From NCBI RefSeq assembly GCF_036365525.1, contig NW_027140807.1, forward strand, positions 496,001 to 560,000: DNA of 64,000 nt, given 5' to 3'. This DNA is from Heterodontus francisci. Lineage: Eukaryota. The notes below the pieces were generated by a model, which did not search any database, had not been told where the DNA came from, and saw only the letters and a program-made list of their open reading frames with translations. Position 1 is the stretch's first letter, and each line of letters opens with the position of its first letter. The translations under genes were made by a program, and so were the position numbers. Below are positions 1,798 through 59,732 of this stretch, one piece after another.

Positions 1798-1834
1798 ATG
1801 TATCAGTCATTGGCTCTGATAATCCTTTTGCACT
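1798..1834 (+). CDS. TRBV: TCR V-beta leader exon (MYQSLALIILLH)
   Basis: ATG at 1798, hydrophobic signal peptide, phase-1 donor T|GTGAGT at 1835; splices in frame to the V exon at 1956. Confidence 0.9.
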
Positions 1835-1955
1835 GTGAGTGAGTCTGAAATACCAACGTTTTCTCTAATAACCTTCCTATACTCATTCCCTCTTCCTTTC
1901 ATTTCCTAGAAATCCCCTGTTTACTGACCTCTTCCTCTCCCCCACTCTCTCCCAG

Positions 1956-2251
1956 GTGTGCACTCGCAGACTATCCTCCAGACTCCTGCCGCTGTCTCCA
2001 GAGTTGTGGGGGAGGAAGTGGAACTGAAGTGCACTGTGGAGGGGAGCAGTACTCTTACCTTGTTCTGGTACAGACAATACCTGGGGAAGGAGCCTCAGGT
2101 TATGTTTTACTCAACGGGTACTAATCACAAAAATCCAGAGAAGGCGGTGGACGGTTTCACTGCCGAGAGACCGACTGGCACCCAGTTCAACCTGGAGTCC
2201 TCCAGCCTGCGGGAGAATCACTCGGCCGTGTATTTCTGTGCCTGGAGTCTT
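1956..2251 (+). CDS. TRBV: Intact TCR V-beta exon, inverted relative to the main locus (TRBV30-like)
   Basis: Acceptor CCCAG|. Open frame VHSQTILQTP...VELKC...LFWYRQ...SAVYFCAWSL keeps the Ig V Cys/Trp/Cys hallmarks and is followed directly by an RSS. Confidence 0.95.
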
Positions 2252-2290
2252 CACAGTGACTCAGAGAGATGGAGCAGTTCAACAAAAACC
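2252..2290 (+). promoter_or_regulatory. 23-RSS of the V segment
   Basis: CACAGTG (2252-2258), 23 bp spacer, ACAAAAACC (2282-2290): perfect consensus. Confidence 0.97.
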
Positions 2291-13607: not shown

Positions 13608-13987
13608 CATCTTGTGTGAACTCACTTTATTTCTCTTTCGTTCACAGTTTCTGCCACTAAGTTCCTCATCCTCATTATTTCTTATCCTTATCTCTCTCTC
13701 TCCTTGCCCTCTTCCCTTTCCCTGTTGTTTGTCTCTGCTTGCCCCCTCTCTCCTTGCCATCCTTCGTTTGTGTTCAATCAACTACCACTCCCTCGCTTTC
13801 CTACACACTCCTGTTCTAAGTCTCCTTTTCTCTCAGTCCTGGTGGTAGTGTTGCCCTGGATGATCGGCTTGCAGCTCTGGACTGGGACTCGGGCAATGAG
13901 GGTCAGAGAGGGTTCTGTCTCAGAGGCGGCTCATAACTGACAGAGTAATGGTTTGAAGGCCTTTTACGTGAGCAATGTGGTGGCGTG

Positions 13988-14043
13988 AATACGGGAAATT
14001 ATAACCACGTGTACTTTGGAAACGGAAGTGGATTAACAGTGTA
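13988..14043 (+). pseudogene. TRBJ: Second J of the inverted cassette (NTGNYNHVYFGNGSGLTV*), defective
   Basis: FGNG motif and LTV. Weak 12-RSS (CCTTTTACG, 12 bp, TGGCGTG). The end reads GTG TAA GAT, giving a stop and no phase-1 donor. Confidence 0.75.
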
Positions 14044-14074
14044 AGATCAGTGCAAAATGCAACCCCACGCGAAC

Positions 14075-19142: not shown

Positions 19143-19480
19143 AGGCAGACCAAGAGGTTAACCATCCCACTGTGACCGTTTTTGAGCTGTCGGATGAAGA
19201 AATCAGGGCCCCTATGAAAGCCACTATTGTCTGCCTGGCCAGTGGCTTCTTCTCGGACTACGTTAAGTTCTCCTGGGCGGGGGGCAACGAGGAGATCGAG
19301 ACGAAGGATGTGCTGACTGACAGGCAGGTAAAGGATGATGCAGGCCGCTACAGCGTGGACCAGTAGGGTGAGGGTTCTCATGGCCGAATGGGACCCGCAA
19401 TCAGTATTCCTGCAAAGTGACCCATTACAGTAAAGCCGGCGCAGAGATTTCTCAAGATGCCAAGATCAGCAGTAAGGCAG
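19143..19480 (+). pseudogene. TRBC: Diverged TCR C-beta-like Ig exon with two frameshifts
   Basis: Acceptor CCCACAG|, donor G|GTGAGT. Reads EADQEVNHPTVTVFELSDEEIRAPMKATIVCLASGFFSDYVKFSW...RYSV / TSRVRVLMAEWDP / NQYSCKVTHY...SSKA, with frameshifts at ~19358 and ~19398. Confidence 0.9.
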
Positions 19481-24637: not shown

Positions 24638-24655
24638 GCGTATGTGAAGGGAAAG
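24638..24655 (+). pseudogene. Hinge exon of the inverted pseudo-C (GVCEGK) with mutated acceptor
   Basis: 18-nt phase 1-1 exon with the interchain Cys and AAAG|GTGAG donor, paralogous to EMCGISK of the functional C. The acceptor reads TTCTTGCCG instead of ...CAG. Confidence 0.65.
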
Positions 24656-25017: not shown

Positions 25018-25046
25018 TGGAGCGGATACAGAGGCAACAGATTGTG
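25018..25046 (+). pseudogene. Short exon-3 remnant of the pseudo-C (VERIQRQQIV) lacking a TM helix
   Basis: Strong acceptor TGTCTTTCAG|; start resembles EAKIQ of the functional exon 3; possible phase-0 donor GTG|GTATGA. Confidence 0.45.
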
Positions 25047-25299
25047 GTATGAGAATTACCAGGACACTTTGATGAAGTGTTTAAAACGGACCACCACTTC
25101 TCTATTCTGTAAACTTCAATCCTCTCAGGTTTTAGGCCTCAGTGAGGCACATTCCCCCAGACATAGTGTGATCACTGAACCCAGTCCAATGTCACTGTGC
25201 ATGTGAATCGACAGTGAAACCACACTATTAGCACCACTGTCTCGACTGCAATCCATCTAGATCCTGCACCAAGGAGTCTGAATCGCCCTACCCTCTCAC

Positions 25300-26347: not shown

Positions 26348-26380
26348 ATTTCGGGAAAGTTGACGAAAAGTTTCGATTAA
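26348..26380 (+). pseudogene. Cytoplasmic exon of the pseudo-C (ISGKLTKSFD*)
   Basis: Long polypyrimidine tract then CCAG|, phase 0, ending K-x-F-D-stop like TSYSKRFD* of the functional C; AATAAA at 26764. Confidence 0.75.
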
Positions 26381-34236: not shown

Positions 34237-34263
34237 TCAGTCAAACCTTTTGCTGTAAGACGT
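34237..34263 (-). CDS. TRBC: TRBC exon 4, cytoplasmic tail (TSYSKRFD*)
   Basis: Acceptor ATACCAG|, phase 0 matching the exon 3 donor, TGA stop. Confidence 0.88.
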   Translation of the reverse strand, partial: TSYSKRFD

Positions 34264-35208
34264 CTGGTATATGATAAAAAAAAGAGGGCGTTATTATCGT
34301 CATGGAATTATGGACTGATGCAGAACAGAAGGAGGCCATTCGTCCCGCGTGCCTATACTGGCATTTTGAAAGAGCTGTCCAATTAGTCCCATTTCACAGT
34401 TCTTTCCCCTATAGCCCTGAGACTATTCCCTCCCCCACTACCTCCACCCCCTCAAACAAGTATTCATCCAATTCCCTCTTGAAAGTTACTACTGAATCAG
34501 CTTCCACCGCCCTTTCAGCCAGTGCATTCTCAACCACAACAACTCGCTGGCTCAAAATATATTTCTCACCTGCCCCTCTGCTCCCTTGGCTAATCACCTT
34601 ACAGCTGTGTCCTTGGTTGGGCAATCCTGCTGCCTCTTTGAAGCTGTTACCCCATTCATTGTCCTATCCAAACCATTCATCATTGTGCACACCTCTATTA
34701 AATCTCTCCTTAACCTTCCCTGATCCAAGGAGAACAATCCCAACTTCCGTATTCTCCTCACATCACTGAGGTCCCTCAACACTGTTACCGTTCAAGTAAA
34801 TCGCCCCTTCACCCTCTCCAATGACTCGACATCACTGTCCTGAGCAGATCATCATGTGCATGAATAATCGAGACGAACCATGCACATGCTCTTTCCTGCT
34901 CATGCATTCCTAACCTTGCATATAAAGTCTTGTAAAATCACAATAAGTTCAATTATTTTCCAAGGGAAATTCCAGAACATTGACAATTGTGTTCAACTGG
35001 ATTAAATTGGTTGGTTAGTGTTGTGGGCGCTGGAATGAATGGAAAGTGAATTGGTGTATTCCATCTGCGTGCAATAGGAATGCAAAACTAGGGCTCGTGA
35101 ATATCGGATAGTCACTCGTAATTTCAGTCTGGAATTCAGGAGAAACTTCTTTACCCAGTTTCACCATGACAATACCAAGATTAAGGACTTCAGTAAGTTT
35201 AATCTTAC

Positions 35209-35315
35209 CTTAGTTTTCCAAGCAATTGTTGAGATGAAAATTGCATAAAAGATGCTTTTGCAGATGAGGATCAGGTATGTCAGTTTTGCTGTTGCCATGC
35301 TTTGGATTTTCGCCT
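35209..35315 (-). CDS. TRBC: TRBC exon 3, connecting peptide and transmembrane (EAKIQSMATAKLTYLILICKSIFYAIFISTIAWKTK)
   Basis: TTTTACAG| ... AAG|GTAAG; TM helix with the CD3-binding Lys and antigen-receptor TM motif tyrosines (YLILICKSIFY). Confidence 0.95.
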
Positions 35316-36696
35316 CTGTAAAATAAATGTAACAGAAAATGTTGCAATCTCTGTTCTCTCAAGGCAAGAAATGCTACTGCGTGAAAATGTAATGTGTGTC
35401 AGTGAAGGAGCCCAATGTCAGGGTCGAGCTGCGAAAGCAGAACTGATCTCCCTTTGACGCAAGGAGCCCTGGGGTATTCCTTACTACAAATGGAGTTCAG
35501 CAATATGGCCGATCTGAATTGGGGCCGCTGTAACTTATGTGTCAGCTATGGCTCACGTATGTATCAGCTCTAGCTGAGTGGGTAACGCTCTCCTGTCTGA
35601 GTCGTACGATTGTGGGTTCAAGACCCAGTCCAAAGACATGAACCCCATAATCCAGACTGACTCTCCCAGTGCCAGTAGACAGCGTGTGTGCTGCACTGCA
35701 ACTTTGGAGGAACCTTCTTTGAGATGATGCGTTAAACTAATTTAACCTCTGGGAAGTGGAACTGTCCCTTTTATCTCCACGCCAGATTCACACTATGAAC
35801 TCCCAAGGAATTGTAAGTTTTAAGACAAGTGTACACAGCTCCCTCCCCTCCCATCCCCAGGCGTCCCCTCTCCCTCATCACAGGGCAACATATTTCCCTG
35901 AGGTCGTGAACCCAAGAGGACCGTGAGGTTATATCATTCGACTCGGCTGGTCTCGAAATTCCAACGGCCTTTCCCTCCCAGAGGAGTTTTCTCATAAACT
36001 CGTTGTGCATGATAGTATGTATAACTGTAAAACTACAGCTTGGAAATGTTGAAATGAGTATATACATGAAATGTCTGACACAGTAATAATTCCAGAATTA
36101 TTGGTGAATATTTTTTGAGTCATGGAGTCATTACAGCACAGAAAGAGGTCATTCGGCCCATCGAGTCCATGCAGGATCTCTCTAGAGCAATCCAATCAGT
36201 CCAGCTCTCCCCTTCCATCCCCATTGCCCTGCAAGTTAATTACCCTCAACAGTCCGTCCAGTTTCCTTATGAAATCATTCATTATCTCCATTTCCACCAC
36301 CCTCGTAGACAGTGACTTCCAGGTCATTACCACTCGCTGCATGAAACACTTCTTCCTCACATCCAACCCCCCCCACCCCGCCCCCACTGCATCTTTTTCC
36401 CAAAGCCTGAAAACTGTGACCCCTCCCCCCCAGTCCTTGTGCCAGCAACTCATGGGGACAACTTTTCTTTGTCTACCCATTGTAAACCTGTCATAATCTT
36501 GTACAACTCTGTCAAATAGCCCCTCAATCTCCTTTTCTCCAAGGAGAACAACCCAGGTTCTCCAATGTAACTTTGTAGCTAAAATTCCTCATCTCTGGAA
36601 CCATTGTGGTAAATCTCCTCTGCACCCTCTCAAGGACCTTCACCTCCTTTACAAAGTGTGGAGACCAGATACAGATAGAAGCAGATAGATATTCAC

Positions 36697-36717
36697 CTTT
36701 ACTTATACCGCACATTT
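36697..36717 (-). CDS. TRBC: TRBC exon 2, hinge with interchain Cys (EMCGISK)
   Basis: TTTTCCCAG| 21 nt |GTGAAT, phase 1-1. Confidence 0.9.
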
Positions 36718-37037
36718 CTGGGAAAAGAAAGAAAAATCAATAAACATTCAGCATCAGAATATTTTATGAAATCACTGTGTAAATGTAGATTATCACAATT
36801 GAGTCCCGCACTGTAGTCTATTATATTGAGAGTCATTTTAATCGAGTGTTTAACCATATCTTCCCCTTTACACTACAATATTGTTCTATTTCATGAATTA
36901 TTTAATTATTTATTGACTTACTGATACATCTACTTGCTTATTCGTACTTTCATAAGAGCACAGGTGCGATATAAATGCAACTTTCTGATTTCTTTGAAGC
37001 TGAAATAAAATGGTATTGGTCTCACTAGTGTGCCTAC

Positions 37038-37388
37038 CTGCTTTGACAGCTAATGTTGAACTGCTTGTTGCAGGCACTGATTCGTTAGTGTAGAGATCTA
37101 CTCTGCACTCAACGTTCTTGGACCGAGCCCAATCTAGGGCGTCGAATCTCAGCCGGCTGCTGATGCTGTAAGATGTATTTTCTTTTGATAGGATGGCATT
37201 GAGATCAGTGTGAATGTTCGTGTCATTAGCATCTTTCTCCTTGCCATCGACAAGCCAGTGGATCTTGATGTTGTCGGGGTAGAAGTCGCTTACGAGGCAG
37301 ACCACAGTGGCTTTTTTCTTTTCTCTAATCTCTTCGGGAGAGGGCTCAAAGACAGTAACTTTGGCAGGCCTAATCGTATCGTTTTCGC
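37038..37388 (-). CDS. TRBC: TRBC exon 1, Ig C1 domain of the T-cell receptor beta constant region
   Basis: CCTGCAG| GENDTIRPAKVTVFEPSPEEIREKKKATVVCLVSDFYPDNIKIHW...YSISSRLR...W...VECRV... |GTAGG; 351 nt with C-beta signature motifs. Confidence 0.97.
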
Positions 37389-43957: not shown

Positions 43958-44008
43958 CCGAAACGCTTAGCTTCGTGCCCCCTCCAAAATACTGTTCATA
44001 TCCTGAAG
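43958..44008 (-). CDS. TRBJ: J-beta SGYEQYFGGGTKLSVS
   Basis: FGGG motif, donor GTGAGT, RSS CACCATG-12-ACTAAAACT. Confidence 0.92.
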
Positions 44009-45015
44009 CACCATGCTACAACCCTACACTAAAACTAACAAGAGTGTCTCTCCCCTCTAGATGGATGCAGTTGGTGCTGGGGATAATGCATTGAAATTGC
44101 AACGATCGAACCAAAGTTCTATATAAGTTTCATGTAACTTCTGTGCTTTGGAATGCTAGCTAATCCCCTGCAAAGGAAGCCCTGTGCTTTGTTTGCTGTT
44201 ATTATTGGATATTGGTCAATATTAAAGATGCAGCCAAGTACGATGTCGTACTGCATCAGGGGATACCAATTAGAATTTAGCCTGCAGGTTGCTCAATCTT
44301 CTGCTAACACCCAGAGCTTCTTGCTGTTTCCCCATAACCCTACAATTGTTAGCCTTCAAGTATGCATCAAATGCATTGTTTAAGCTATTTTCAGGCAGTG
44401 CATTCCACATGACAACAACTGGCTGTGTAAAAACAAATGCTCATCTCCCTCTTTGTTTCTTTTACCAATCACAAATCTGTTCTCTCTGCTTACCGACCCT
44501 TCTCCCAGCAGAAATGAGTTATTCTTATTTACTCTCTTACAAACCATATGATTTTGGGCATTTTGAATATGATATTAATTCCCACATTAACCTTCTCTTC
44601 TCTGAGGAGAACAACCCCAGTTTCTCCAGTATCTCCACACAATTGAAGTCCTTCATCCCTGGTACCACACAAGCAAATCTTCTTTAACCTTCTCTGCTCC
44701 AAGGAGAACAACATTCTGCTTTTCCAGTCTCTCTACAAAGCTGAAATCTTTTCTCCCTGGTATCAATCACCCCACCACCACTTAATCTTCTCTGCATTAC
44801 CCTACCAGTTTTCAGAATATATCTTTCTGAAATATTGCGAATTAAATATAATAATTATTACGATAATTTGGTAATAAGTGGGGCAACGAGGGAAATCTGG
44901 GAAGCAGGGTCAGACATGCAGCTCTGTTCAGTTTTGTACTGGAGTGTAATGCCATGGGTAAATATACAACTAACTTAATTGACGCACTCAAAACGTTACA
45001 TTTTTTAAAACTTAC

Positions 45016-45067
45016 CCAACACTGTTAATTTGGGACTGTGGCCAAAATGAACGTTAGCAGTTGCATC
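45016..45067 (-). pseudogene. TRBJ: J-beta DATANVHFGHSPKLTVL (non-canonical FGHS; ORF or pseudo)
   Basis: Donor GTAAG, RSS CACAATG-12-CAGAAAACT; second Gly and Thr of FGxGT lost. Confidence 0.8.
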
Positions 45068-45674
45068 CACAATGCTACATTCCTATCAGAAAACTAGGAT
45101 GGCCTAACAGTTCCCGTAGACTGTCAATACTGTAGCTTGTTCACTGTATTTATTTAGTATATCAAGTGAGCATGTAGTGAAATTGTTAAACTGTTTGGAC
45201 ATTGCCACATATCTCTCACTTTGAAGTCTGATTTTCGATAGTGTTTCAGCATAAATTTAAGTCAATTCCTTATGAACTCAATTTAGTTATTTTCTTGAAG
45301 GAAGACTAGGTGAGTTTGCCATTTAGTATCTAATCTTCTACAACCTTGACGAGATCTAGTCTTTGTTTATTACATTCAAGAATTTTTGTTTGACGGTAGC
45401 TGGCGCTAAGATAAAACTCAGCCATAATTTAAGTGAATGGTGGAAGATGCTCAAGGGATGAATGGTCCTTTGTGGCTTCTTATGTTTGATTGGAGTCCAT
45501 TACAAACTCGTTGTCTAGGGTTTGCATCTGTTATAAACTCGACAGTGGCCCTTCCTGAGTTCAGCCTTTAAGATAATCACTACTAGTTGAGCCTTGCCTC
45601 TCTGCTTTTACATTGGTGAAGCTTAATGCTTTTACATTGAACACTGGGGGGACAAATCGCTCGGTTTTACATAC

Positions 45675-45730
45675 CCAGAACTGTTAATCTTGTCCCATCG
45701 CCAAAGCGGAGAGGTGTGCTGTTTCCAGAA
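45675..45730 (-). CDS. TRBJ: J-beta SGNSTPLRFGDGTRLTVL
   Basis: FGDG, donor GTATGT, RSS CACAGTG-12-ATTAAAACT. Confidence 0.93.
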
Positions 45731-46291
45731 CACAGTGTTACAAAGCAGTATTAAAACTGCTGGGTACCAATGATTACATGATACTTCATCGAATGCGCTG
45801 ACACCTTGGAACAATTATCATTCAACCAATTGCAATGTGTAGATTTTTCTGACCTTTTCTCCACCATTCCATTTGAAAACAGAGAAATTATGGTAAAATT
45901 TGATTAGACGTTCTTGGAGCTCTGTGCACAGTTCTGGTCTCCATATCCCTCGGTTAGACCACACTTGGATCACTGTGCACAGTTCTCGTCTTCATACATA
46001 TTTACCAATCAGGAAAGACTGAATAGCCTTTATGATAGATAAGAGAAGGCTTAGAGGTGACCTGAAAGAGGCGTCTAAGATTATGAAAGGGTGGGAGGGG
46101 GGGGGGGTTCCGGAGGGTAGACACAGAGAAGTCTGGTAACGTTGTCTTTGCAAAATTGTGCATCTTGGGATTAAAATTTACTCAAGTTTTCCAGTATGTG
46201 GCCAGGTTTGTGAGTTTTGGCAGAATTACGAAGCAATGAATGAACACTTAGAGCGAATTAAATTTGAATATTGAGATCTATTCTTGTTTAC

Positions 46292-46344
46292 CGACCTAGA
46301 ACGTAATCCCAGAGCCAAAGTAAGAGATCGAGGTCCCAGCTGAA
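46292..46344 (-). pseudogene. TRBJ: Pseudo J-beta SAGTSISYFGSGITF* (internal deletion, stop)
   Basis: FGSG followed by a frameshifting deletion and TAG; RSS CACAATG-12-TGTAAAACT. Confidence 0.8.
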
Positions 46345-46379
46345 CACAATGTCACAGGCCAGTTGTAAAACTACCAGGG

Positions 46380-46920
46380 CCCTCAGTTAGGCCTGAGCTG
46401 GAGTCTCGTGCCCAATTCAGGGCACCACACTTTTGGAAGGATGTCAAGGTCTTGGAGAGCGTGCAGAGAGAGATTTACTGGAATGGTCCTAGAAATGAGG
46501 GACTCAGTTATGTGGACAGACTGGAGAAGCTGGGATTGTTCTCCCAGAGAAGGTGAAGGAGGGAGTTAATAGCTGCTTTCAAAGCCACGAAGGGCTTTGT
46601 TAGAGTCAGTAGGGGGAGACTGATTCCACTGGCCGGAGATTTCACAACCAGAGAACATAGATTTAAGGCAATTGGCAAAAGATCCAGATGTTTATTGAGG
46701 GGCCATTTCTTTACACAACGACTTGTTATGATATGGAATGCATTACCTGAAAGTGTGATAGATACTGATTGCATATTGAACTTCAAAAAAGAATTGGATC
46801 ATAGTTCAAAAAGGCGAAAATTGCAGGGCTGTATAGAAAGAAAAGGGGTGAGGGAGGCGAATTGGAGAACATTTCCCAACAGCCGACTCTAGTAAGATGG
46901 GCCGAGTGGTATTCTTGTGT
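46380..46920 (+). mobile_element. CR1 LINE 3' fragment
   Basis: FFTQRLVMIWNALPE motif, preceded by a DVKVLESVQR-like sequence. Confidence 0.75.
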
Positions 46921-47520
46921 CCAACATGCATATTTGTCGAATTATTTCCATCAACTGTTTTTTTTAGAAGTCTGTCCCATTATCAACAGTGAGCATTCAT
47001 TCCAGAAGATCACTGCTTCAGGACGTTAATCATAACAAGCTGAACAAACTCTGTTTAAGAATGGGATTGAATTTTATACGGATGAAGGCAAAGCACAATC
47101 TTCTAAAACAAAATCGAAGCGGTCATTTTTATGAATTAGTGTGAGGTTAACAATTTTATGCGGCAACAGCTCAGAATTGTTGACTTAATTTTGGCTGCAA
47201 GCCCATAAAGTATGGATTGACAAAAGTATTAGGGTCATGTCTTTACAGCCATGTCTATCCTGGATTCTACTCCACCCAATAACCCTCCTGAGAAAAGAGC
47301 CTGAGGAATGTCTCCCAATTCCAAAACAATTCAGCCAATCACAAGAAGGCATTTCCACCATAACATTCTACGTTAGACAACCCAATGCACTTCTCTGTCG
47401 GTTTAATGTCACACAGCATTTTCTATATTTTTGAAAGGATAATAAGATTGTCGATGTGCTGGTTGATAATTCGAAAACTGGACAGTAATGGGAAACTACA
47501 GAATATGATGATAGACTATC

Positions 47521-48045
47521 CCTTCTTCTTTCTTTTCTTTCTTTTGGGCCTACTTATCTCGAGAGACAATGGATACGCGCCTGGAGGTGGTCAGTGGTTT
47601 GTGAAGCAGCGCCTGGAGTGGCTATAAAAGCCAATTCTGGAGTGACAGGCTCTTCCACAGGTGCTGCAGAGAAATTTGTTTGTCGGGGCTGTTGCACAGT
47701 TGGCTCTCCCCTTGCGCCTCTGTCTTTTTTCCTGCCAACTACTAAGTCTCTTCGACTCGCCACAATTTAGCCCTGTCTTTATGGCTGCCCGCCAGCTCTG
47801 GCGAACGCTGGCAACTGACTCCCACGACATGTGATCAATGTCACACGATTTCATGTCGCGTTTGCAGACGTCTTTATAGCGGAGACATGGACGGCCTGTG
47901 GGTCTGATACCAGTGGCGAACTCGCTGTACAATGTGTCTTTGGGGATCCTGCCATCTTCCATGCGGCTCACATGGCCAAGCCATCTCAAGCGCCGCTGAC
48001 TCAGTAGTGTGTATCAGCTGGGAGTGTTGGCCGCTTCAAGGACTA
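47521..48045 (-). mobile_element. RTE-clade LINE 3' fragment
   Basis: RWLGHVSRMEDGRIPKDTLY...GRP..RYKD...CSTCGRAC.SRIG..SH.R.C: RTE C-terminus with zinc finger and a purine tail. Confidence 0.85.
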
Positions 48046-48078
48046 GTTAGACAAACAAAGCCTTTAACATTTACATAC

Positions 48079-48134
48079 CCAAAACTGTGAGCTTGGTCCC
48101 TTGGCCAAAATATAATGGTTCGGTCTTTCCATAA
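48079..48134 (-). CDS. TRBJ: J-beta YGKTEPLYFGQGTKLTVL
   Basis: FGQG, donor GTATGT, RSS CACAGTG-12-TACAAAACT. Confidence 0.93.
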
Positions 48135-48796
48135 CACAGTGTTACACTCCCATTACAAAACTATTACCCTCCAGACAACCTATTGCACCAGGAGGCGGCC
48201 ATTCAGCCCCTCTATCCTGCTCCTCTATTCAAAGGCTGATCTGTACCTCACTTCATTTACCAATCTGATCTCGATATCCCTCGATAACCTCCCCAAACAA
48301 AGTTATTTCCATCTCAATTTTGTCAGGTCTAATCGCCCTCCAGGATTCACAGCTTTTTGTTGAAGAGGGAGTTCCAGAGATCTTTTACAATCAATTATTA
48401 TCATGTACTTTTACTACGGATTCCTCTGCGAGAGGTGAAATCAGAGGGTTTTCCATCAAAATATCTGATGTTCGACATCCCAGTACGGCTTTAGTTTCAC
48501 ATAAAAAGCTACAATGAGATTCTTGATATTCCCATTGATAACTAGAATAATGGAGAGTTGTGGGCAATCACAGAATATAACAATAGACCAACAAATGGCT
48601 TTATCAAGTTTGACTATCCCAGTGGATAGTGAATGGAACAATTTAACAATAGTGTTACTCTAAAAGAGAAGCAAATTAATCTCTTTTAAAGGCAGGCTGG
48701 AGATTGGGTCAAATCATTAACTAAACCCTCTCCACTCCCCATTGGAGGCAACAATTAAACTGTAAAATGAATACAATGGTGTAACCGTTCACCTAC

Positions 48797-48849
48797 CGAA
48801 AACTACTAACTTGGTCCCATCGCCAAAAGTATAATCGTAGTTATTTGAG
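48797..48849 (-). CDS. TRBJ: J-beta SNNYDYTFGDGTKLVVF
   Basis: FGDG, donor GTAGGT, RSS CACAGTG-12-GTTAAAACT. Confidence 0.93.
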
Positions 48850-49007
48850 CACAGTGATGCCTGTCAGTGTTAAAACTCCCATCTAGTTAGAAATGCTAAA
48901 ATGCACCGTCTTCGAAATGATGTACTCAAATTGTAGATTTACATACTATTAATGTGTGATGTAAAGACAGCGGCAATGCACCCTAGATATTGCACAGGAG
49001 AACAAAA

Positions 49008-49160
49008 GGTAAGTTATAGGGCCTGGTGGAGGTTGCAGAGACAGCGAGATTTGTCTGGATTGGAGGATGTTACAGGGATAAGGAGAGTTATAGAGGCTGG
49101 AGGCGGTTACAGGGATAGGGAGGTTTGTAGGGGCCGGAGGACGTTACAGGGACAGGGAGG
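49008..49160 (-). repeat. Short array of the 37-bp minisatellite unit (opposite strand)
   Basis: GGCTGGAGG.GGTTACAGGGATAGGGAGG units, the reverse complement of the 14-19 kb array. Confidence 0.8.
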
Positions 49161-49349
49161 CCTTGGGTTGAGTTGAAAACAAATGTGAAAGATATTTAAA
49201 CCAAGATATTGCAGGTCCAGCTGCCAATATAAATCGTCGAGGTGATTCTGTGACCGAGAACATGATGTATTTTAGAGCATCTAATTTCGTCTGAGAATCT
49301 CAAGGATCCTCATTAACGAAAACAACAAAAGCTTCAGTTCTGTACTCAC

Positions 49350-49402
49350 CTAAAACAATCAATTTTGTCCCGTCACCGAAGTAATACAGAGTATTTCCTG
49401 TA
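49350..49402 (-). CDS. TRBJ: J-beta TGNTLYYFGDGTKLIVL
   Basis: FGDG, donor GTGAGT, RSS CACAATG-12-AGTATAACT. Confidence 0.92.
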
Positions 49403-50457
49403 CACAATGTTACATGACAATAGTATAACTACAGGTCGAAGAGCAATGAAGCTGGTGCACTGATGCAAAACTTCACACAGAATGCACTGGAGATTTGACT
49501 CTTTATGTCAAGGGCATTATAATGTTAATTAGAAATTCATTGTGAGGAATAGAAAGGGAAGTTCGTTACTCTGATAGTGGTAATAATGTGGAATGCACTA
49601 CCACAAGGAATGGGTTGAGATGGATTTTGGAGATGCTTTCAAGGAGTAAATTGGAAAAAGACATGGGAGAGAAAGGAATAGAAGATTAGATGAAGTAAGG
49701 GTGAGAGGAGGCTCGTGTGCAGTTTCACCACTGGCTTGCTTACACACTGTAAATTCTATATAATTAAATGTAATTATGATGTTTTATTTCACTCATTCTG
49801 GGGGAAGAACGATGACAGCATTTTTTGGAAACAAATAATCCGCCCTCTGAGAAAACGGTTCACAAATCTGCAACTCCCTCCCTGACAGGACTGCGGAAAG
49901 ACCTACACCCCATTGAGTGCAGGGGCGATGGTTGCAAAGTGATAATGTTACTGTGCTAGTAATGTTCTGGTTCAAATCCCGAGGGTAGCTGGAGGAATTA
50001 AACTTCAACTGATAAATGAAAGTCTGGTTTAACTGCAGGAAACTATCGTCAATTGTCAGAAAATCGCGCTGTTGTCAGAGAAGTGACTTCAGACTTCAGT
50101 TGACTCGCAACTGCCTTCTGATTCAGCAAACCACCCAGTCCAAGAGCAATTAGGGTTGGCCAACAAATCTTGGCCTTGCCAGCGACGCCCATATCTGATG
50201 AAAAAAAATGAGCTAGCAAACCACTCAGAGGGCAATTAGGGATGGGCAATAACTTCTGGTCCACATGCCACGAACGAATTAAAAAAATGTCTTTCCCTGT
50301 GCATCTTAGTATTTTCCATGTATTCTGGCTTTTATGCACATTGGAAATGCTGCCTGAAATTTTTTTGTTATTTGTCAATGCAACATTTCAGTTGCAAACT
50401 GAAACTCAGAAACAGCGTGAGCTGCAATCATTGTTTTTCAAAGAACGTCCAACTCAC

Positions 50458-50510
50458 CCAACACAGTCAGTTTTGTCCCGTCACCAAAGAAATAGTCGGA
50501 GCTTCCAGAA
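50458..50510 (-). CDS. TRBJ: J-beta SGSSDYFFGDGTKLTVL
   Basis: FGDG, donor GTGAGT, RSS CACAGTG-12-TACTAAACT. Confidence 0.93.
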
Positions 50511-50812
50511 CACAGTGTTTCAGCCCTGTTACTAAACTAGACTGGTTCCTGAAAAGTTGCCGAATATTTGAGTGAATAATACAGCTCTTGTTTGTTTGTC
50601 CATAGTAAGCTAAATGGGAGAAATTTTCCCTTCTTTAAACACATATCCAGTTCAAGAATCAGTCTTTCTCCTTCTCTCTCTCTCTGTCTCTGTTTATATC
50701 TTAAATGCATTGGAAAAATGTCTTTCACCAATGAACCCGGAGCCTTAAACATCTTTCCGACCATTTCAGACAACATGCATTCTCAGAATTGGCCTAACAT
50801 TCCTGGACTCAC

Positions 50813-50862
50813 CTGTCACAACTAACTTGGTACCGCTTCCGAAGTAATATTGATAGCCAGAA
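50813..50862 (-). CDS. TRBJ: J-beta SGYQYYFGSGTKLVVT
   Basis: FGSG, donor GTGAGT, RSS CACAGTG-12-AACAAAACC. Confidence 0.93.
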
Positions 50863-51907
50863 CACAGTGAGAGACCCTTGTAACAAAACCTCACAAGGCG
50901 AGGTGCAGGTCTTGTCTATATCACACTTGGACCCTGTCCTCGAAAGCGTTTGCAGATCACATCTCCTTAATTTATATATCTCCTAATTTACATTTGTGGC
51001 TCACGAGCAAGGTCATAGAATCAGAAATATACATCACTGAAGGGGAGACCATTCGGCCCATAGGACCTCTGCTGGCTTTATGAAAGGTTTTACCATCGTC
51101 CTGTATATTTCCCTTCGAGTATCTATCAATTTCTATTTTGAAAGTTTCTACTGAACCAACTTCCACCACCAGTTCAGATATGCCTTCCCGATCCAGTAAC
51201 TACCTCTGTGGGAGAATGTCTCTTCATCCCGCCACTGGTCCTTTATGTCAATTGCCTCAAAACCTGTGTCCTCTGGTTACCGACCCATCTACCAATGGAG
51301 ACTGTTTCTGATTATTAATTCTATCCAAAACCTTCACTAATTTGAACACCTCTATTCAATCTCCATTTAACCTTTTCTGTTCTCCAGTCTCTCCAACTAT
51401 CTGAGGTCCCTCATCTCTGGTACAATTCTGGTGAATAATTTCTGCTCCCAATCTAAGGCCTCGACAACCGTCATAAAGTGTGGTACCCAGGACTGAACAC
51501 AATACTCCAGCTGGGACCTTACCAGTGATTTGTAAATGTTAATCCTCACTTCCTCACTCAACACCTCGTGAATTCTTAACCAATGATGGTGCGTTCCAGC
51601 ATCATCAACTGGTCACTTCAAACATCTTGACCCTTTTTTTAACCAAGCTCTCTCTCTATCTCACTCCTCGCATTAAACCGATAGAGTAACATTCGGGACA
51701 GGGGTAGGCCATTCAGAGTCTGATTTCCCAGACAGCTATCACTTGTTGATTTCAACACACAATCGGTCATTGTTAAGAAACGGATGTCACCTGAATAGGC
51801 AATATGATTAGCGTTATCTTCATATATTAATCTTGTAAATTTCAATCAGACTATACCATATCAGACCGTGCGGAATGATTCTCACTGACGCCACGTTAAT
51901 CAGTTAC

Positions 51908-51959
51908 CTAAAACCACGAGGTTTGTGCCATCGCCAAATGTATAGTCATTGTTTCCTGA
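51908..51959 (-). CDS. TRBJ: J-beta SGNNDYTFGDGTNLVVL
   Basis: FGDG, donor GTAACT, RSS CACAATG-12-AACAAAGCT. Confidence 0.92.
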
Positions 51960-52392
51960 CACAATGTTACACAGTTGCAACAAAGCTGGGGAATCTTTAA
52001 CTCTCTACACGCCGGTTAATTAAGCGCAGTTGCATCGTTTTGTATTGGGTTGCATTTGTTACCCCGCCCTTTCCCTCTTTACCTCTTTTTGTTATTTCTT
52101 TTGTCTTTGTCTCGACCTCTCCCATCTTTGTCTCTCTAATTTTCCGTCCCCTTTTCCCTGCATTTTGCTCCCAATCTGTCTCTCTGTAGATAAGGTTTGC
52201 CTCCCTAACCTTCCTCCATTTCCACCTCGCCATTGCCCTATGTTTAGTTGTTTTAACTGTTGCTTCGTTACTCTTTGTTTTTTTCTAAAGTTTATGGTCT
52301 CTCCCCTTTCTTCAAACTGACGGGGACAAACTGGCCGACAGTTTTAATAATTACTGAGACCACTGATATGTTTCAACAAATATCTCACTCAC

Positions 52393-52450
52393 CCAGGACT
52401 GTTAACTAAGTGCCGTCTCCAAAATATGATAGCTGGGTATTTCCTGCACC
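52393..52450 (-). pseudogene. TRBJ: Pseudo J-beta GAGNTQLSYFGDGT*LTVL
   Basis: In-frame TAG replaces Lys after FGDGT; RSS CACATCA-12-ACGAAACCA; donor GTGAGT. Confidence 0.88.
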
Positions 52451-53000
52451 CACATCATCATGTGACAACACGAAACCATTCCTCAATAGCGCCCTGCCAG
52501 TTTTCAGTGTCCATCTCATTAATATTTGATATTGCCCTTTGACTAACATGAGCTGACCATACAACAAAGTACACGCATAAAATAACCGGGTGGGGAGGTG
52601 GGGGAGAGGGGGCTTGACCATTAAAGCTAGCAACATTCACAGTACCGTCTATCCATCCATCTGTGAATATGTTAGATGTCCACAGATACAGTGCTTATAA
52701 TACTGGAAGATTTTACATGGAGTTGTTCATAATTATTAATTAACTTCTACACACAAGTTGGGGACCAGATAGCTCAGGTGCCGAACGTGCCAGTTAGAAA
52801 AATGCTTACAGAACGGATTCATTTCTCACCGTGTCTGGGGAAGGCAAGGGGAAGCCTCCTCATAGACACTCCTCCCCATTCATGCTCCTCTCTCCTGCTG
52901 GTGAAAAGGAGCAGAGAGCCAGTCCATCAGATGACCACCAGCCTGCACAGACAAGATGAACCCAGCATCCCTAGCTTCATTGAATGAAAGTCTAACTCAC

Positions 53001-53057
53001 CCAATACTGTTAGAGCCGAACGTTCTCCAAAATGCAAAGGCTGGTAGCTCCCGCCTG
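53001..53057 (-). pseudogene. TRBJ: J-beta GGSYQPLHFGERSALTVL (non-canonical FGER; ORF or pseudo)
   Basis: RSS CACTATA-12-ACCAAAACA; donor GTGAGT; second Gly lost. Confidence 0.8.
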
Positions 53058-53212
53058 CACTATACTAAACAACAGTACCAAAACACACCTTTGGATAGAC
53101 ATATACACCGACAGAAAAGTAGCTACGTCGATAGATAAACATAAAGATGGATACACAGACCGATACATTATGGTTGATGGAACAATAGATGTTTATATAG
53201 ACGGTAACGTAC

Positions 53213-53262
53213 CTAAAACAGTTAACTTGGTACCAGCTCCGAAGTAGTAAATATCAGAAGAG
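53213..53262 (-). CDS. TRBJ: J-beta SSDIYYFGAGTKLTVL
   Basis: FGAG, donor GTACGT, RSS CACAGAG-12-ATCAAAACC. Confidence 0.92.
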
Positions 53263-54803
53263 CACAGAGCTAAATCCCTGCATCAAAACCTCTCACCTCT
53301 CTCTGATTCATGTCCTGAAGGAGCCTTTCACAACTAGAAAGAACCTCCCGGAGTATTGGCACAAAGGAACATAGAAATGCTGTCGCTGGAGTAGGCCATT
53401 CAGCCCATCGAGCTTGTTCCGACATTCAGTGAGGTCATGACTCATCTGTATTGTAACCCCATCAGCCTGTTTGTGTTCCAAACCCTTTTCCTAACAAGGC
53501 TCTATCATTCTCAGATTGGGAAGTGACAATTGACCCTGTGGCCTCAGCAGTTTCATAGGGGAGAGAGGCCCAGATTTCCACCACCGTTTGTTCAGTTATG
53601 TCCTTTCTGGCATCACCCCTGAACGGCCAAGCTTTAATGTTAAGCTAATGCTCCCCTCCACCCTCACCCTTGTTCTGGGCTCTGACACCCGCGTAAATTG
53701 CAGCTCTATCTGCCCTATCGAATCCTCTCATTATCTTAAACACATCAGTTGGATCAATCCTTAATCTCCAATGCTCAACATCTCTAAGCAACCTGCCCCC
53801 ACAATTTAATTCCGGCATGATTCTGGTAAATGAGGAAAGATCATTCGCAATCTGCCCTGGACTTTCAGCTCACGTTTCCCAGGCCGTTCAATGTGCATTC
53901 TACACCCAGTCTCCATTCACAAATTTAAAAAATCCCTTTTGATATTTCTCATCCATTTAAACGCTTCAGGTTAATGGGGAATACATCAAATCATATCGAC
54001 ACTTCAGCACCGAACCAGGCCATTCAGCCCACTACATCCTAGCCGATTAAATGCTACACATTATCCTTCTCACACCCTCTTCATCTCACCCCATCAATAG
54101 GTCCTTTTATTCCTTTCTCCCCCATATGTTTATCCAGCTTCCCTCTTAAATACATCTCTGCTATTCGCCTCAGCCCACTCCCTGTGGTAGCGAGGTCCAC
54201 ATTCTCGCCACTCTCTGGTTGAAAAGGCTTCTCCTGAATTCCATATTGGATTTATTAGTAACTGTCTTATATTGATGGTCCCCTGGTTCTGGTCTCCCCA
54301 ACAAGTAGAATCATCTTGCCTCTGTCATAATTTTAAATACCTCGATCAGGTTATTCCCTTCAGCCTTCTCTTTTCTAGAGAAAACAGCACCAGCCTCTTC
54401 ATTCTTTCCTGTGGTTATATCCTCTCAGTTTTGGGAGCTCACTTGTAAATATGTTTTGTTTTGCTCTATCCAGAGCCTCTGCTTTTTTAATCATATGCAG
54501 TCCATAACGGCATACTGAAGAATTGAATCTGACAGTTTTCGTTCTGTGCCTGTGTCCTCTTGTTCTGTTCTCATTTGCAGCTGCAATTGCTGTTTACACT
54601 GTTTATTTTAGAGACCCTACCTTATGTCCCCACTCAAACCCCTTTCCATCCAGTGACGTGAATTCAGCAGTTGTAGGTCTCCCTTTGGCAGCTCAAGAGT
54701 CGAAATCAATTCACCAAATTCCCATATTTTCACTCCCTGGACCACCCCACGTGAATTCCCAAATTGAATTAACTTTTCCAGCATCAGGAATGCATTCACT
54801 CAC

Positions 54804-54853
54804 CTAAAACCACCAGTTTGGTCCCATCTCCGAAATATGCTTCTCTAGCATTA
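54804..54853 (-). CDS. TRBJ: J-beta NAREAYFGDGTKLVVL
   Basis: FGDG, donor GTGAGT, RSS CACAATG-12-CGCAAAATC. Confidence 0.92.
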
Positions 54854-55432
54854 CACAATGGTATGGGGCTGTCGCAAAATCCCCCTCTAGTCTAGATTGT
54901 TAAGTCTATTCCATTGAAGTTCTGACTGTTTCAATGGCCCGTAAAGGGTGTTGGAACAGGGGGACAGGAGGTGGCTGTTCAGCCCTTCGAGCCTCTTCCA
55001 CCATGCAGTTAGATCAGGGTTGTTCTGAATCTTAACTCCATCATCCCACCTTGGTTCTGTAACTGTCAATACTTCTGTTTAACAAAAATCTAACAATCTT
55101 GAATTTGAACTTATCAATCGACGCCCAGCCTCAACAGCATATTATTTTGTTGTGGGGGGTGTGGGGAGAGTTCCTGATATCACCCCTGAACGGCTCGAAT
55201 TTAAATTGTTCTGGACTCCCCCCAACCTGAAGAAGCAGTTTCTCTCTATCGATCCAACACCTCAAGCACCTCGATTATATCAGCCCTTTAATGATCTCGA
55301 TTCAAGGGACTGTCAGCTTAGTCTGAGTAACCAAGTCCTCATGATTTAACCCCTTTCTGCATCTAATATCTGAACTTACTCCCCGCATATAAACCTAGAT
55401 GTTGATCTGATAGGAAGAACAGAGTCCCTTAC

Positions 55433-55480
55433 CGAAAACTGTTAACTTGGTCCCGTCGCCGAAGTAAGCTATGTTTCCTG
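55433..55480 (-). CDS. TRBJ: J-beta GNIAYFGDGTKLTVF
   Basis: FGDG, donor GTAAGG, RSS CACAGTG-12-TCATGAACT. Confidence 0.92.
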
Positions 55481-55842
55481 CACAGTGGCCTAAACCCAGT
55501 CATGAACTGGCCCGGGAACTGTTACCCTTGCAGCTGAACGGGTCTGTGCCGGGCGGTTTACCGTGGAACACATCACCAAGCGGGTGTCCCGTTGGACTGG
55601 TCTTTGCGAACCAGAAGGAAGGGCCAGTGTCGTCCCGGGGAGAGAAACACCGCGCCAAAGTGACAAACGGATGCTTGTGGCAGGAGGGAAATTAGGCGCA
55701 ATTCTCGGCGGTCATGAGACAGATCTAACCGGCTGCCTAACTCGTTAAACTGTCCGGGGAGGAGGGGGGGGGGGGGCAGTAAGCTTGGAATGCACACAGC
55801 TAGACATGAAGGTAGAGAGAACAAAAGACCCCTTTATCTTAC

Positions 55843-55893
55843 CTAACACCGTCAGTTTGGTGCCGGTCCCGAAATTGAGTGGTGCTGTTGTCG
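55843..55893 (-). CDS. TRBJ: J-beta TTAPLNFGTGTKLTVL
   Basis: FGTG, donor GTAAGA, RSS CACATCA-12-ACACGAACC. Confidence 0.92.
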
Positions 55894-56414
55894 CACATCA
55901 GCAAATCATGTTACACGAACCCGGTCGAAAACAGTTTGCTAAAAGTGACCTGCTCAGCATTTAGGAAGCACTGGTCAAGACAATCAGGACACACAAAGCA
56001 GCTTACAGCCAATGAAGCAGTTTGTTTAGGAAGTGGTCACCACAGGGAGACAGAGCAACTGATATTGGACCAAGGAAGTCCCATCAAACAGCAGTGAAAT
56101 TAATGAGCAGATCATTGTGATGTTGGTTGAGGGATCAATATTGGTCCCAAGACACCGGGGTGGTGTTTCAGGGGTAAAAGAGTAACCAGTTTTCACACAA
56201 ATAACACAGTTATTCTCTTTTCCAGAGGAATGCTCTAGGTTATAAAGCTGGACCATTCTGAGGCATCTACAAGATTGAAAGGGCCCAGCTCCCGCCATAA
56301 TCCAGAGGAGATGTTTATTCGTTTACTCTGTTGCCACTGCTCTTCTGCTGATCTTCCTCGAGGTGTGTAGAGCGAGGTTTTTGTACGGAGGCTGCATTGG
56401 ATTCTATCACAGTG

Positions 56415-56427
56415 TCCCCCCTGTCCC
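56415..56427 (-). CDS. TRBD: D-beta segment GGGACAGGGGGGA
   Basis: 5' 12-RSS: CACGGTG (56428-34), 12 bp, ACAAAAAAG. 3' 23-RSS: heptamer 56408-14, 23 bp, GGTTTTTGT (56376-84, plus strand). The core matches the vertebrate TRBD1 GGGACAGGGGG and is open in all three frames. Confidence 0.97.
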
Positions 56428-58037
56428 CACGGTGATAGACACTCATACAAAAAAGAACGCGAATTTTGCAAGGCCCTGCTTCTTCAAAGACTCCCGAGGG
56501 CTTCACTTGGTGAAGTCAGTTTAGATTGAGCTGCTGAAAGTTTTTTAGTCCTTTGGACCATAATTAAAGGCCGTTCATTCCGTCTCAAAACTGTTAGCAG
56601 GAACTGGAGGTGGCCATTCCGCCCCTTCTCAGCCTGCTACACAGGTGCAGCAAGAGGCCATTCAGCCCCTCTAGACCTTGTTACACAGGAAGAAGAGGAG
56701 GCCCATTCAGCCCCTCTTGAGCTGCTTACACAGTAACAGGCCCATTCATCCACTCAAGCCTCCTTCCTTTCCTCTACTTCCTTCCTTCCTTCCTTCCCTT
56801 CCGTCCTTCCGTCCTTCCTCCCTTCCTTCCTTTCATGGTTTTTTTCTTGCTTGCTTTCTCTCTTGCTTTCTCTCTCTCCATTCCATCTCTCTGTTGCACC
56901 CCTTCTCCCCTTCCCCCTCCCCCATCCCTTACCCGCTTCATGATCCGCATTCTCTCTTGTACAACGTGCAGGACCTCAGGACATACCGGCCACGGGACCT
57001 CAAACAGAAGCCACTTACTCTAGACAGTAAATCGTTCACACTGCTATCTCTTATCTTATCACTCAGAGAGACCCATGTTTGCCAAACTAGTGCAAGTTTC
57101 CCAGGTGTCGTGTTGATGTGTGCGGTGCTGTTATCATTCCTGCAGATCTCATTGCACACCAACCCCCATCGCCATGCACCTGACATCAGGGAGAAAGGAA
57201 TAGAAGTTTAGATGGAGTAGGGTGGGGGTGGGGAGAGGAGGCTCGTGTTCAGTATCACCACTGGCTTGATGACACATTTCTGGGGGGATTCGAGCAATGC
57301 TTGAAAATGAATAATCCGCCCTCTGAGAAAATGGGTCAAAAAAGGAACTCCTTCCTTAACAACACTGTGGAAATACCTAAAACACATTGAACGCAGGCGT
57401 GACGCCAGCAAAATGATAATGTTGCTGGGCTAGTAATCCTGCAGCCCGGGCTAGTGTTCTGGTTGTGTGAATTCAAATGGCCGCAGATGGGATTTAAATT
57501 CAGCTGATTCATAAAAATCTGTCAGGGTGCCATGAAACTGTCGTCGATTGTCATAAAAACCCATCTACCATCTTATATGGGACTGCAAACCTGCAGCATG
57601 CAGTTGACTGTTAACTGCCCTCTGAAATTGCAAAGCACTCAGTTCAAGGGCAATTAGGGATGGGCAACAAATGTTGGCCTTGCCATCGGTGCCCACATCC
57701 CATGACAAGAATAAAAACATGGCCTAACAAACCACTCAGAAGGCAATTATGGGTGGGCAATAAATGCATCCCAGCACGAATTAACAATGACTTTTCCTGT
57801 TCATTTTTGTCTGTATTTTGCTCCCAATCTGTGCCTCTCTGCATATGGTTGCCTCCCTAGCCTTCTTCCACTCTCCACCTCGCCTTTCCTCTATGTTTAA
57901 TTGTTTTAACCTTTGCTTCTTTACTGTAATGCTTACTGTTTATTTTTCCAAATTTCATGTTCTCTCCCCTTTCTTCAAACGGAAGGGAGCAAACTGCCCA
58001 ACAGTTTCAGTGCTGATTGAGGCCACTGATATATTTC

Positions 58038-58393: not shown

Positions 58394-58451
58394 CCAGGAC
58401 CGTTAACTTCGTGGCATCTCCAAAATATGATGGATGGTTACTTCCTGCTCC
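58394..58451 (-). pseudogene. TRBJ: J-beta GAGSNHPSYFGDATKLTVL; FGDA and RSS nonamer deleted
   Basis: Paralog of the 52393 J; 8 bp covering the nonamer (ACGAAACC) are missing. Confidence 0.85.
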
Positions 58452-58972
58452 CACATCACCATGTCACAACATTCCTCAACAGTGTCCTGCTTATTTGCAT
58501 TGTCCCGATCATTAATATTTGATATGGGCCTTTGAGTGACATAGGCCAAAGTAAACTCATAAACTAACCAGGGTGTTTGGCAATTAAAACTAGCAACATT
58601 CCCAATACTGGCTCTGCATCAATGTATGGACCAGTTCGTCAGATGTCCACAGAAACAGCTCTGACAATATTGGAAAATTTTACTTGGAGTTCGTCATAAT
58701 TATTAAGTAAGTTGTGCATGTAGGATGGGGACCTATTAGTTCAGTTAGCTAGATGGTTCACGTGTGATTCAGAGCAAGGTCAACAGCAGGGGTTCAGTTA
58801 TCGTCTTGTTCTGACGAAAGTAACGGGAAACCGCCTTACCTACCTTTTTCCCTTGTCATTCTCATCTCTCCTGCTGGAGAAAAGGAGCACAGAGCCATGG
58901 ACAGAACATCTGCATGACACAGGCAATATGAAACCAGCCATCCTGGCTTAATCGAATAAACATGTAACTCAC

Positions 58973-59029
58973 CCAAAACTGTTAGAGTCCAGCCTTCCCC
59001 AAAATGTAGAGTCTGGATGTTCCCGCCTA
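58973..59029 (-). CDS. TRBJ: J-beta GGNIQTLHFGEGWTLTVL
   Basis: FGEG, donor GTGAGT, RSS CACTATA-12-ACCAAAACA (weak heptamer); paralog of the 53001 J. Confidence 0.8.
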
Positions 59030-59188
59030 CACTATACTAAACAACAGTACCAAAACACAGCGTTGGGTAGACAGGTACAGTCTCAAACAAGTAATGTATC
59101 TATATCTAAACACAAAGATGGATGCACAGATACATTGTGGATCGATCGAACAATGGATATTTGCACATTTATGTAGATGGGATATTAC

Positions 59189-59247
59189 CTAAAACTTAGA
59201 TCCAGTTCCGATTCAGCAGAGCAAAACCTAGATCCCTGAATAAAACC
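59189..59247 (-). pseudogene. TRBJ: Deleted J relic, paralog of the 53213 and 62945 J segments
   Basis: TTACCTAAAAC..CCAGTTCCGA..CAGCAGAGCA..ATCCCTGAATAAAACC aligns to 53211-53290 with deletions. Confidence 0.65.
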
Positions 59248-59489
59248 TCTCAACTCTCTGTGGTTCTATCCCAAGAGAGCCTTTCACAACAATGGAGAAC
59301 CGACAAGTACAGGAATATTGGCTGACAGCAGCACGAGAGCATAAATTGACCGTTCAGCCCTTCGAGTAGGATCCGACATGCAAAAAGATCATGTATCTTC
59401 GTATCGTCAAGGTGGATGGAAAGAAAGGTGCAGAGCTGAGTGGTTAAGTGCACAGCTCTCAATGGTGGATTGATGGAAATCGGACAGTC

Positions 59490-59732
59490 CAGAATTTCAG
59501 GATCACAAAGATCTCGGAGAGTTGTAGAGGCTGGAGGAGGTTACAGAGATAGGAAGGGTTGTCGGGGCTGGAGGAGGTTACAGAGATAGGGAGGGATGTA
59601 GGGGCATGGAGGAGGTTATAGACATAGGGAGGGTTGTCGGGACTGGAGGTGGTTACAGACATAGAGAGGGTTGTAAGGGACTGGAGGAGGTTACAGGGAT
59701 AGGGAGGGTTGTAGGGTGCTGGAGGAGGTTGA
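59490..59732 (-). repeat. L2-like LINE fragment expanding into 37-bp minisatellite units
   Basis: Minus strand reads PSYLCNLLQP; about 6 tandem units adjoin non-repeated LINE-like sequence. Confidence 0.7.

What the first reader, a model, noticed from the sequence alone, without database searches (positions are those of the whole stretch)
1798..2290. Intact inverted V with the CAWS motif: a candidate shark ortholog of mammalian TRBV30
Seen: the V is intact with a perfect 23-RSS although its own J and C partners are damaged. It lies 3' of the main C-beta in opposite orientation and ends YFCAWS. Known: human TRBV30 and mouse Trbv31 are the inverted 3' V genes, end CAWS rather than CASS, and rearrange by inversion. 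Seen: this V's RSS and the 12-RSS of the main D (56428-56455) both lie on the high-coordinate side of their coding ends, the geometry for inversional joining. Inference: the V is maintained through use with the main D-J-C, and the arrangement predates the shark/bony vertebrate split.
Basis: partly seen in the sequence, partly recalled or inferred. Interest (0 to 1): 0.75.

Follow-up and report, generated by a model that had tools for sequence, protein, structure and literature searches.

The report
Inverted V heading shark's second TCR-beta
An intact, backwards-facing shark T-cell-receptor beta V gene is the last member of an inverted V array that leads into a dead second constant gene, a layout repeated about twenty times in this genome assembly; it likely works by flipping onto the live D-J-C unit and is likely a cousin, not a one-to-one ortholog, of human TRBV30.

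Summary
Observation confirmed: intact V, perfect 23-RSS, YFCAWS, 35 kb 3' of a spliced C-beta in opposite orientation, inversional geometry to the D. The reading 'shark TRBV30 ortholog' is only partly supported. The V is not solitary: it closes a four-V inverted block, has 24 near-identical intact copies, and CAWS also ends 8 of 23 forward V hits. It ranks 10th of 31 shark/ray V domains against donkey TRBV30 and nests in a shark-dominated CAW radiation sister to the TRBV30-containing clade (co-orthology; 1:1 not formally rejected, AU p 0.2). The family's inverted 3' position does look old: bamboo-shark tables (PMC10322711) show inverted arrays holding all 16 V genes with the same leader length. 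Its dead J-C partner is a second, divergent C-beta type, broken in 24 of 24 copies here, intact in two catsharks. The whole unit is multiplied (21 C-beta copies, 13 distinct). Rearrangement of this V was not shown. The scan noted the multiplied locus and the second C type before, on other DNA.

The parts
1798..1834 (+). V leader exon (37 nt)
   Evidence: splice joint 1834>1956 GT..AG in run X1
1956..2251 (+). V exon 2, open, ends YFCAWSL; most C2-proximal V of an inverted array
2252..2290 (+). 23-RSS, consensus heptamer and nonamer
13950..14045 (+). damaged J of the second unit with degenerate RSS (14-nt spacer) and out-of-phase donor
19143..19480 (+). second-type C-beta pseudo-exon 1 (two frameshifts); 58% and 52% identical in two pieces to catshark C
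24638..24655 (+). second-type C relic exon 2 (acceptor mutated)
   Evidence: compared by eye with catshark P0161 tail
25018..25127 (+). second-type C relic transmembrane exon (stop, frameshift); 3' end approximate
26348..26380 (+). second-type C relic cytoplasmic exon
34237..37388 (-). functional main C-beta, four exons
43960..55900 (-). main J cluster: 14 J-like segments, 2 with stops
56376..56455 (-). main D (56415-56427) with 5' 12-RSS (56428-56455) and 3' 23-RSS (56376-56414); likely inversion partner
58395..62995 (-). three J segments of an upstream D-J block whose D lies just beyond the window (G000:C761 about 561.6 kb)

Best explanation
This V is the last gene of an inverted V array that leads into a decayed second V-J-C unit lying tail-to-tail with the live C-beta, and it is likely kept because it would join the live D-J by inverting about 54 kb. 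Shown: anatomy, copy number, decay of the partner J-C, intact catshark counterpart of that C, spliced transcripts of the subfamily. Inferred: after D-to-J joining, RAG pairs the V 23-RSS with the D 12-RSS; the segment between is flipped, the signal joint stays on the chromosome and V-D-J splices to the main C-beta. The V belongs to the TRBV30-like (CAW) family, which in sharks is a large radiation co-orthologous to TRBV30; the family's inverted 3' position likely predates this lineage, while this particular gene is not singled out as the TRBV30 ortholog. The whole unit has been copied about 13-21 times.
For: Four same-strand V genes in the block. 24 of 150 listed hits are 90-99% identical; 24 of 24 are open with perfect RSS, 17 distinct coding sequences; 23 of 24 have a second-type C 10.6-19.1 kb ahead, 21 of 24 an opposite-strand C-beta and D ahead (D at 43-99 kb), whereas a same-strand D lies 111-851 kb ahead in 15 and was not found in 9. 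Second C broken in 24 of 24; no D-like element found between V and J in 7 loci scanned, so the V has no working partner of its own. Framework changes 19 N vs 11 S (pN/pS 0.5, binomial p 0.055; vs flank rate Fisher p 0.025). Leader splice at contig depth 225 in X1 and a 199-nt X2 contig matching copies L012/L013 at all six differing sites. Catshark P0023, P0160, P0161 carry an intact C, 57% identical to the relic, 33-37% to the main C-beta. Tree: TRBV30+bony CAW clade (10 rows, 94/91) sister to a 25-row shark-dominated clade (98/87) holding this V. 21 C-beta copies at 98-100% aa on 6 contigs, 6 on one contig; median DNA distance 2.1% over 3.3 kb.
Against: No contig shows this subfamily joined to D-J; the one junction contig seen differs at 10 of 105 bases and belongs to another CAW subfamily. 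Spliced leader-V transcripts may be germline transcripts; RSS-spanning contigs of V family members exist. All 11 X1 contigs at 2082 carry C, not this window's private T, so this very copy is not shown expressed. The selection signal is weak and the copies are not independent. AU test does not reject this V grouping with TRBV30 (p 0.2, 94 columns). Some of the 21 units are near-identical (0-10 differences) and may be haplotype or assembly duplicates; read depth was not tested. The position of the intact catshark C relative to a main C-beta was not seen.
Confidence: 0.7

Rival explanations
1. One-to-one ortholog of TRBV30/Trbv31: this gene, at the C-proximal end of the inverted block, descends directly from one ancestral inverted V, and the other shark CAW genes are offshoots.
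For: Position-specific subfamily (23 of 24 copies next to the second C), at most 82% DNA identity to forward V genes in the 85 kb surveyed; scores 67.6 bits vs 59 for one forward V against the MEL5 beta chain (MEL5 is TRBV30 per PMC5887915); AU p 0.2.
Against: 10th of 31 against donkey TRBV30, behind four forward V genes; best tree nests it in the shark radiation, constrained tree 14 log units worse; catshark gene models P0160/P0161 put non-CAW V sequence nearest the second J-C.
Confidence: 0.1
2. The V is used mainly by deletional joining to the D-J-C of the next same-strand unit, so its 'inverted' position is incidental to an alternating multi-unit layout.
For: Units alternate in orientation; a same-strand D lies ahead of 15 of 24 copies (442 kb for this one). 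The bamboo-shark layout allows the same.
Against: The opposite-strand D is nearer in every copy where both are seen; deletion would remove a whole unit; inverted 3' V genes recombine in amniotes (PMC11754216).
Confidence: 0.12
3. The V is a passenger: intact only because the units duplicated recently, and transcribed only as germline transcripts.
For: Copies are 95-100% identical; purifying signal only borderline; no junction seen.
Against: The neighbouring J and C were already dead in all copies before the duplications while V and RSS stayed intact in 24 of 24; several forward V hits in the same contig do carry stops.
Confidence: 0.08

Closest known systems
Human TRBV30 / mouse Trbv31 / opossum TRBV28 (PMC2275272, passages read; PMC10464911, passages read)
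   Same: Inverted V 3' of C-beta, CAWS ending, same V clade at family level, inversional RSS geometry.
   Different: Mammals have one such V; here it is one of four in the block and 24 genome-wide, with many forward relatives and a dead J-C between V and C-beta.
3'-inverted TRBV clade of amniotes and squamate TRE (PMC11754216, passages read)
   Same: Several inverted V genes 3' of C (tuatara five); a second C-beta-like gene tied to this V clade.
   Different: TRE is described as a squamate duplication at another site; no link to the shark second C was tested.
Bamboo shark TRB (PMC10322711 supplementary file 16, part 1 and TRBC rows read)
   Same: Head-to-head pair of D-J-C units, each with an inverted array of 15 V genes 3' of C; 34 kb from last V to C as here (35 kb); all 16 V genes with intron start 38 lie in those arrays.
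   Different: One pair, no second-type C annotated; here the unit is multiplied and CAW genes also entered some forward arrays.
Catshark TCR-beta-like gene models P0023, P0160 (Scyliorhinus torazame), P0161 (S. canicula)
   Same: Same divergent C type with one J, four-exon match to the relic.
   Different: Intact there, dead in all 24 copies here.
Bichir and salmonid multi-unit TRB (PMC10322711 table; PMC10464911)
   Same: Several complete V-D-J-C units, some in opposite orientation; orphan inverted V genes read as remnants of a lost D-J-C (trout TRB4).
   Different: 2-5 units there, 13-21 here.

Membership tests
TRBV30/Trbv31 ortholog | 3' of C-beta in opposite orientation | tested here: met
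TRBV30/Trbv31 ortholog | falls in the TRBV30-containing V clade | tested here: met
   36-row clade, 94/95; 41-row clade 98 in quick tree
TRBV30/Trbv31 ortholog | closer to TRBV30 than its forward paralogues (1:1) | tested here: not met
   10th of 31; nested in shark clade; AU p 0.2 does not formally reject
TRBV30/Trbv31 ortholog | single inverted V; CAWS diagnostic | tested here: not met
   4-V block, 24 copies, CAWS in 8 of 23 forward hits
TRBV30/Trbv31 ortholog | rearranges by inversion to the main D-J-C | tested here: inconclusive
   geometry fits; no junction for this subfamily
TRBV30/Trbv31 ortholog | EPHB6/KEL synteny beyond the V | tested here: inconclusive
   the 90 kb beyond the block is mostly GA-rich satellite in the ORF listing seen (output cut in the middle); no family scan run; further TRB units follow
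Functional TRBV gene | open leader and V exon, canonical splice sites, 23-RSS | tested here: met
Second-type shark C-beta | closer to catshark C than to main C-beta, four exons in order | tested here: met
Multi-unit TRB | several distinct V-D-J-C units in one genome | tested here: met
   exact number needs read depth

The most novel reading that the evidence does not exclude
The lone backwards TRBV30/Trbv31 of mammals is the last survivor of the V array of an ancient second TCR-beta unit that lay tail-to-tail with the main one and had its own divergent constant gene: intact in catsharks, dead here, lost in tetrapods. This would explain why the inverted V sits where it does and date inversional V use to before the shark/bony split.
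Probability: 0.3. Interest if true: 0.75.

Novelty: new variant of a known kind. Interest (0 to 1): 0.5.

Why it matters
Reviews treat TCR loci as translocons (PMC2275272) and the 3' inverted V as an unexplained single translocation (PMC11754216). Here the inverted V heads a relic V-J-C unit with a second C-beta type, giving a testable origin for TRBV30's position. A locus of 13-21 complete units, each with V genes able to join by inversion, also makes allelic/locus exclusion in shark T cells a directly testable question, since C-beta and V copies carry unit-specific variants.

Tried and rejected
The search for homologous proteins at near length found nothing; 'longer' gave 2 hits. CAWS as a diagnostic motif: rejected (22 of 288 V-like domains end CAW, from sharks, rays, bony fish, amphibians, a mammal). 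An intact second-type C somewhere in this genome: none in 24 of 24. A D in the second unit: none under my RSS criteria in 7 loci. RNA: no listed holder is on record as RNA ('no RNA holder listed'); X1, X2, X6 are one sample and only guessed RNA, held as short contigs that cannot link a V subfamily to J and C. No cover on the V's own 3' flank (2348-2600): not used as evidence. C-beta variants were too truncated to count expressed units (only 37228 informative). PDB searches with the two C types were dominated by multi-domain Ig hits and did not rank them; Atlas only confirmed a TCR-beta C fold. First tree did not finish its careful search and had long branches; rebuilt leaving out 34 of 88 rows. 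Four papers were not held. Nine literature searches listed no paper on a second shark C-beta type or a 20-unit shark TRB; subscription journals are missing, and I recall (unverified) 1990s horn-shark papers suggesting several TCR-beta loci and Pettinello 2017 on catshark TCRs (title seen in a reference list only), which may already report either.

Full report
Observation. The V is intact (leader 1798-1834, exon 2 1956-2251, 111 aa, ending YFCAWSL) with a consensus 23-RSS at 2252-2290 (expected by chance 4e-5). The main D, 14 J-like segments and a four-exon C-beta lie on the minus strand; C-beta splice joints are present in contigs of runs X1/X2. V RSS and D 12-RSS both lie on the high-coordinate side, so joining would invert about 54 kb. 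The same-strand J and C are damaged.

The V is not solitary. The window is G000:C761:496001-560000. In 264 kb of that contig, three more same-strand V genes precede it (486.6, 488.7, 491.2 kb) and 23 V hits lie forward of the D, of which 8 end CAWS, 6 without a stop. The first two V genes of the inverted block align at 85-90% DNA with forward-array segments; our V reaches at most 82%. Genome-wide the search listed 150 of 1468 candidates; 24 are 90-99% identical. Of the 150, 107 point first at a second-type C, 39 at a same-strand D, 4 at neither (biased by the query).

The unit is multiplied. 21 C-beta exon-1 copies at 98-100% aa lie on six contigs, six on C407 alone; 40 D matches; 24 second-type C copies. 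Of 20 C-beta loci fetched, the median distance over 3.3 kb is 2.1%, 1 of 190 pairs is identical, and by my reading 13 groups remain at 10 or fewer differences; 13 distinct exon haplotypes. 18 of 21 C-beta copies have a second-type C tail-to-tail within 25 kb; for the other three the 3' side runs off the contig within about 11 kb. Some near-identical copies may be haplotype duplicates; depth was not tested.

The dead partner is a second C-beta type. Catshark gene models P0023, P0160, P0161 hold an intact J-C with transmembrane and tail. The relic is 57% identical to it over 70 aa, the main C-beta 33-37% overall, and relic exons 2-4 match its tail by eye. All 24 copies are broken in exon 1; the J body survives in 13 of 23 matches, the 12 printed all with the same defects, and no D was found in 7 loci scanned.

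Maintenance and use. 24 of 24 V copies are open with perfect RSS. Framework changes: 19 N, 11 S, pN/pS 0.5 (p 0.055; against flanks p 0.025), a weak signal on related copies. Run X1 (RNA by guess) has the leader splice at depth 225; an X2 contig matches copies L012/L013 exactly at six sites. Against: the only junction contig is from another subfamily, RSS-spanning contigs of family members exist, and the window's private base at 2082 is in none of 11 X1 contigs. An opposite-strand D lies 43-99 kb ahead in 21 of 24 copies, a same-strand D 111-851 kb ahead in 15. Inversion onto the own unit is therefore the likeliest route but is inferred.

Relation to TRBV30. The best single-stretch PDB hits are 5xov_J and MEL5-family beta chains (MEL5 is TRBV30, PMC5887915 one passage; the V gene of 5xov is recalled as TRBV30), but a forward V hits the same chains. 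Against donkey TRBV30 (P0156) our V is 44% identical and 10th of 31. In a 54-row tree (34 of 88 rows left out: long branches, alpha/delta-like and unnamed teleost rows) TRBV30 groups with bony-vertebrate CAW genes (94/91), sister to a 25-row shark-dominated clade (98/87; includes two sturgeon rows) where our V sits beside forward genes; holding it with TRBV30 costs 14 log units, AU p 0.2. No human, mouse or chicken germline V was available as a stored sequence. Result: same family, many-to-one.

Age of the position. In the bamboo-shark table (PMC10322711 supplementary file 16, part 1) two D-J-C units lie head to head, each with 15 V genes inverted 3' of C. Here a 37-nt leader was found only on CAW genes (15 of 15; leader not found for 11 of 35 rows). 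Taking 'intron start 38' as that leader (my assumption), all 16 such bamboo-shark genes are in the inverted arrays and 0 of 5 between the D segments (Fisher p 0.011); the compact pair on C407 likewise has none of this subfamily among 8 V genes between its D segments. Bichir and sterlet tables also show inverted V genes 3' of C, family unknown. So the family's inverted position likely predates the split of this shark from bamboo sharks; continuity with tetrapods is plausible (about 0.55), not shown. Those arrays are also same-strand with the partner unit, so inversion is not proven there either.

What is known. Amniote inverted V clade and TRE: PMC11754216 (passages). Opossum: PMC2275272 (passages). 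Salmonid opposite-orientation units and orphan inverted V genes: PMC10464911 (passages). Axolotl PMC12529555 (passages) added nothing. PMC10322711 main text (passages) did not discuss shark TRB layout in what I saw; its other 18 supplements were not read and may bear on it. Earlier scan notes reported the multiplied locus, the bamboo-shark table and the second C type; they call the animal horn-shark-like, which I did not test.

Verdict. Real, ordinary V gene in an unusual setting. The 1:1 ortholog claim is not upheld; the family-level, ancient-position claim is partly upheld; the link to a relic second C-beta unit and the 13-21-fold locus are the interesting parts. Interest 0.5.

Noticed in passing
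window 58395-62995 and G000:C761 560.5-561.7 kb: A second D-J block (D plus at least five J) upstream of the main D with no C between; both would feed one C-beta. Repeated in most units.
   Followed up: partly
G000:C761 about 401-485 kb: Roughly 85 kb of GA-rich satellite directly 5' of the inverted V block; no V found there.
   Followed up: no
G000:C407 308-363 kb and 1318-1380 kb; C2233 391-444 kb; C1675 353-406 kb: The inverted V + second-C block is itself tandemly doubled behind four C-beta genes.
   Followed up: partly
window 37540-37480 (-): A degenerate J-like stretch about 100 bp before C-beta exon 1 (seen by eye).
   Followed up: no
window 1798-2315, runs X1, X2, X3, X6: Contigs read through V RSSs into the flanks of several other V genes, as germline V transcripts would.
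   Followed up: no
L001-L024: Variation among the 24 V copies includes three CDR1 types (TLF, PLI, NMF) that follow unit lineages and could tag units in repertoire data.
   Followed up: partly
G000:C8 115-125 Mb; C46 15-17 Mb; C34; C23: Large tandem arrays of near-identical Ig-type constant exons hit weakly by C-beta, probably Ig clusters.
   Followed up: no
window 14090-18900 and G000:C761 561.7-571.6 kb: Long minisatellites between second J and second C, and 5' of the upstream D.
   Followed up: no
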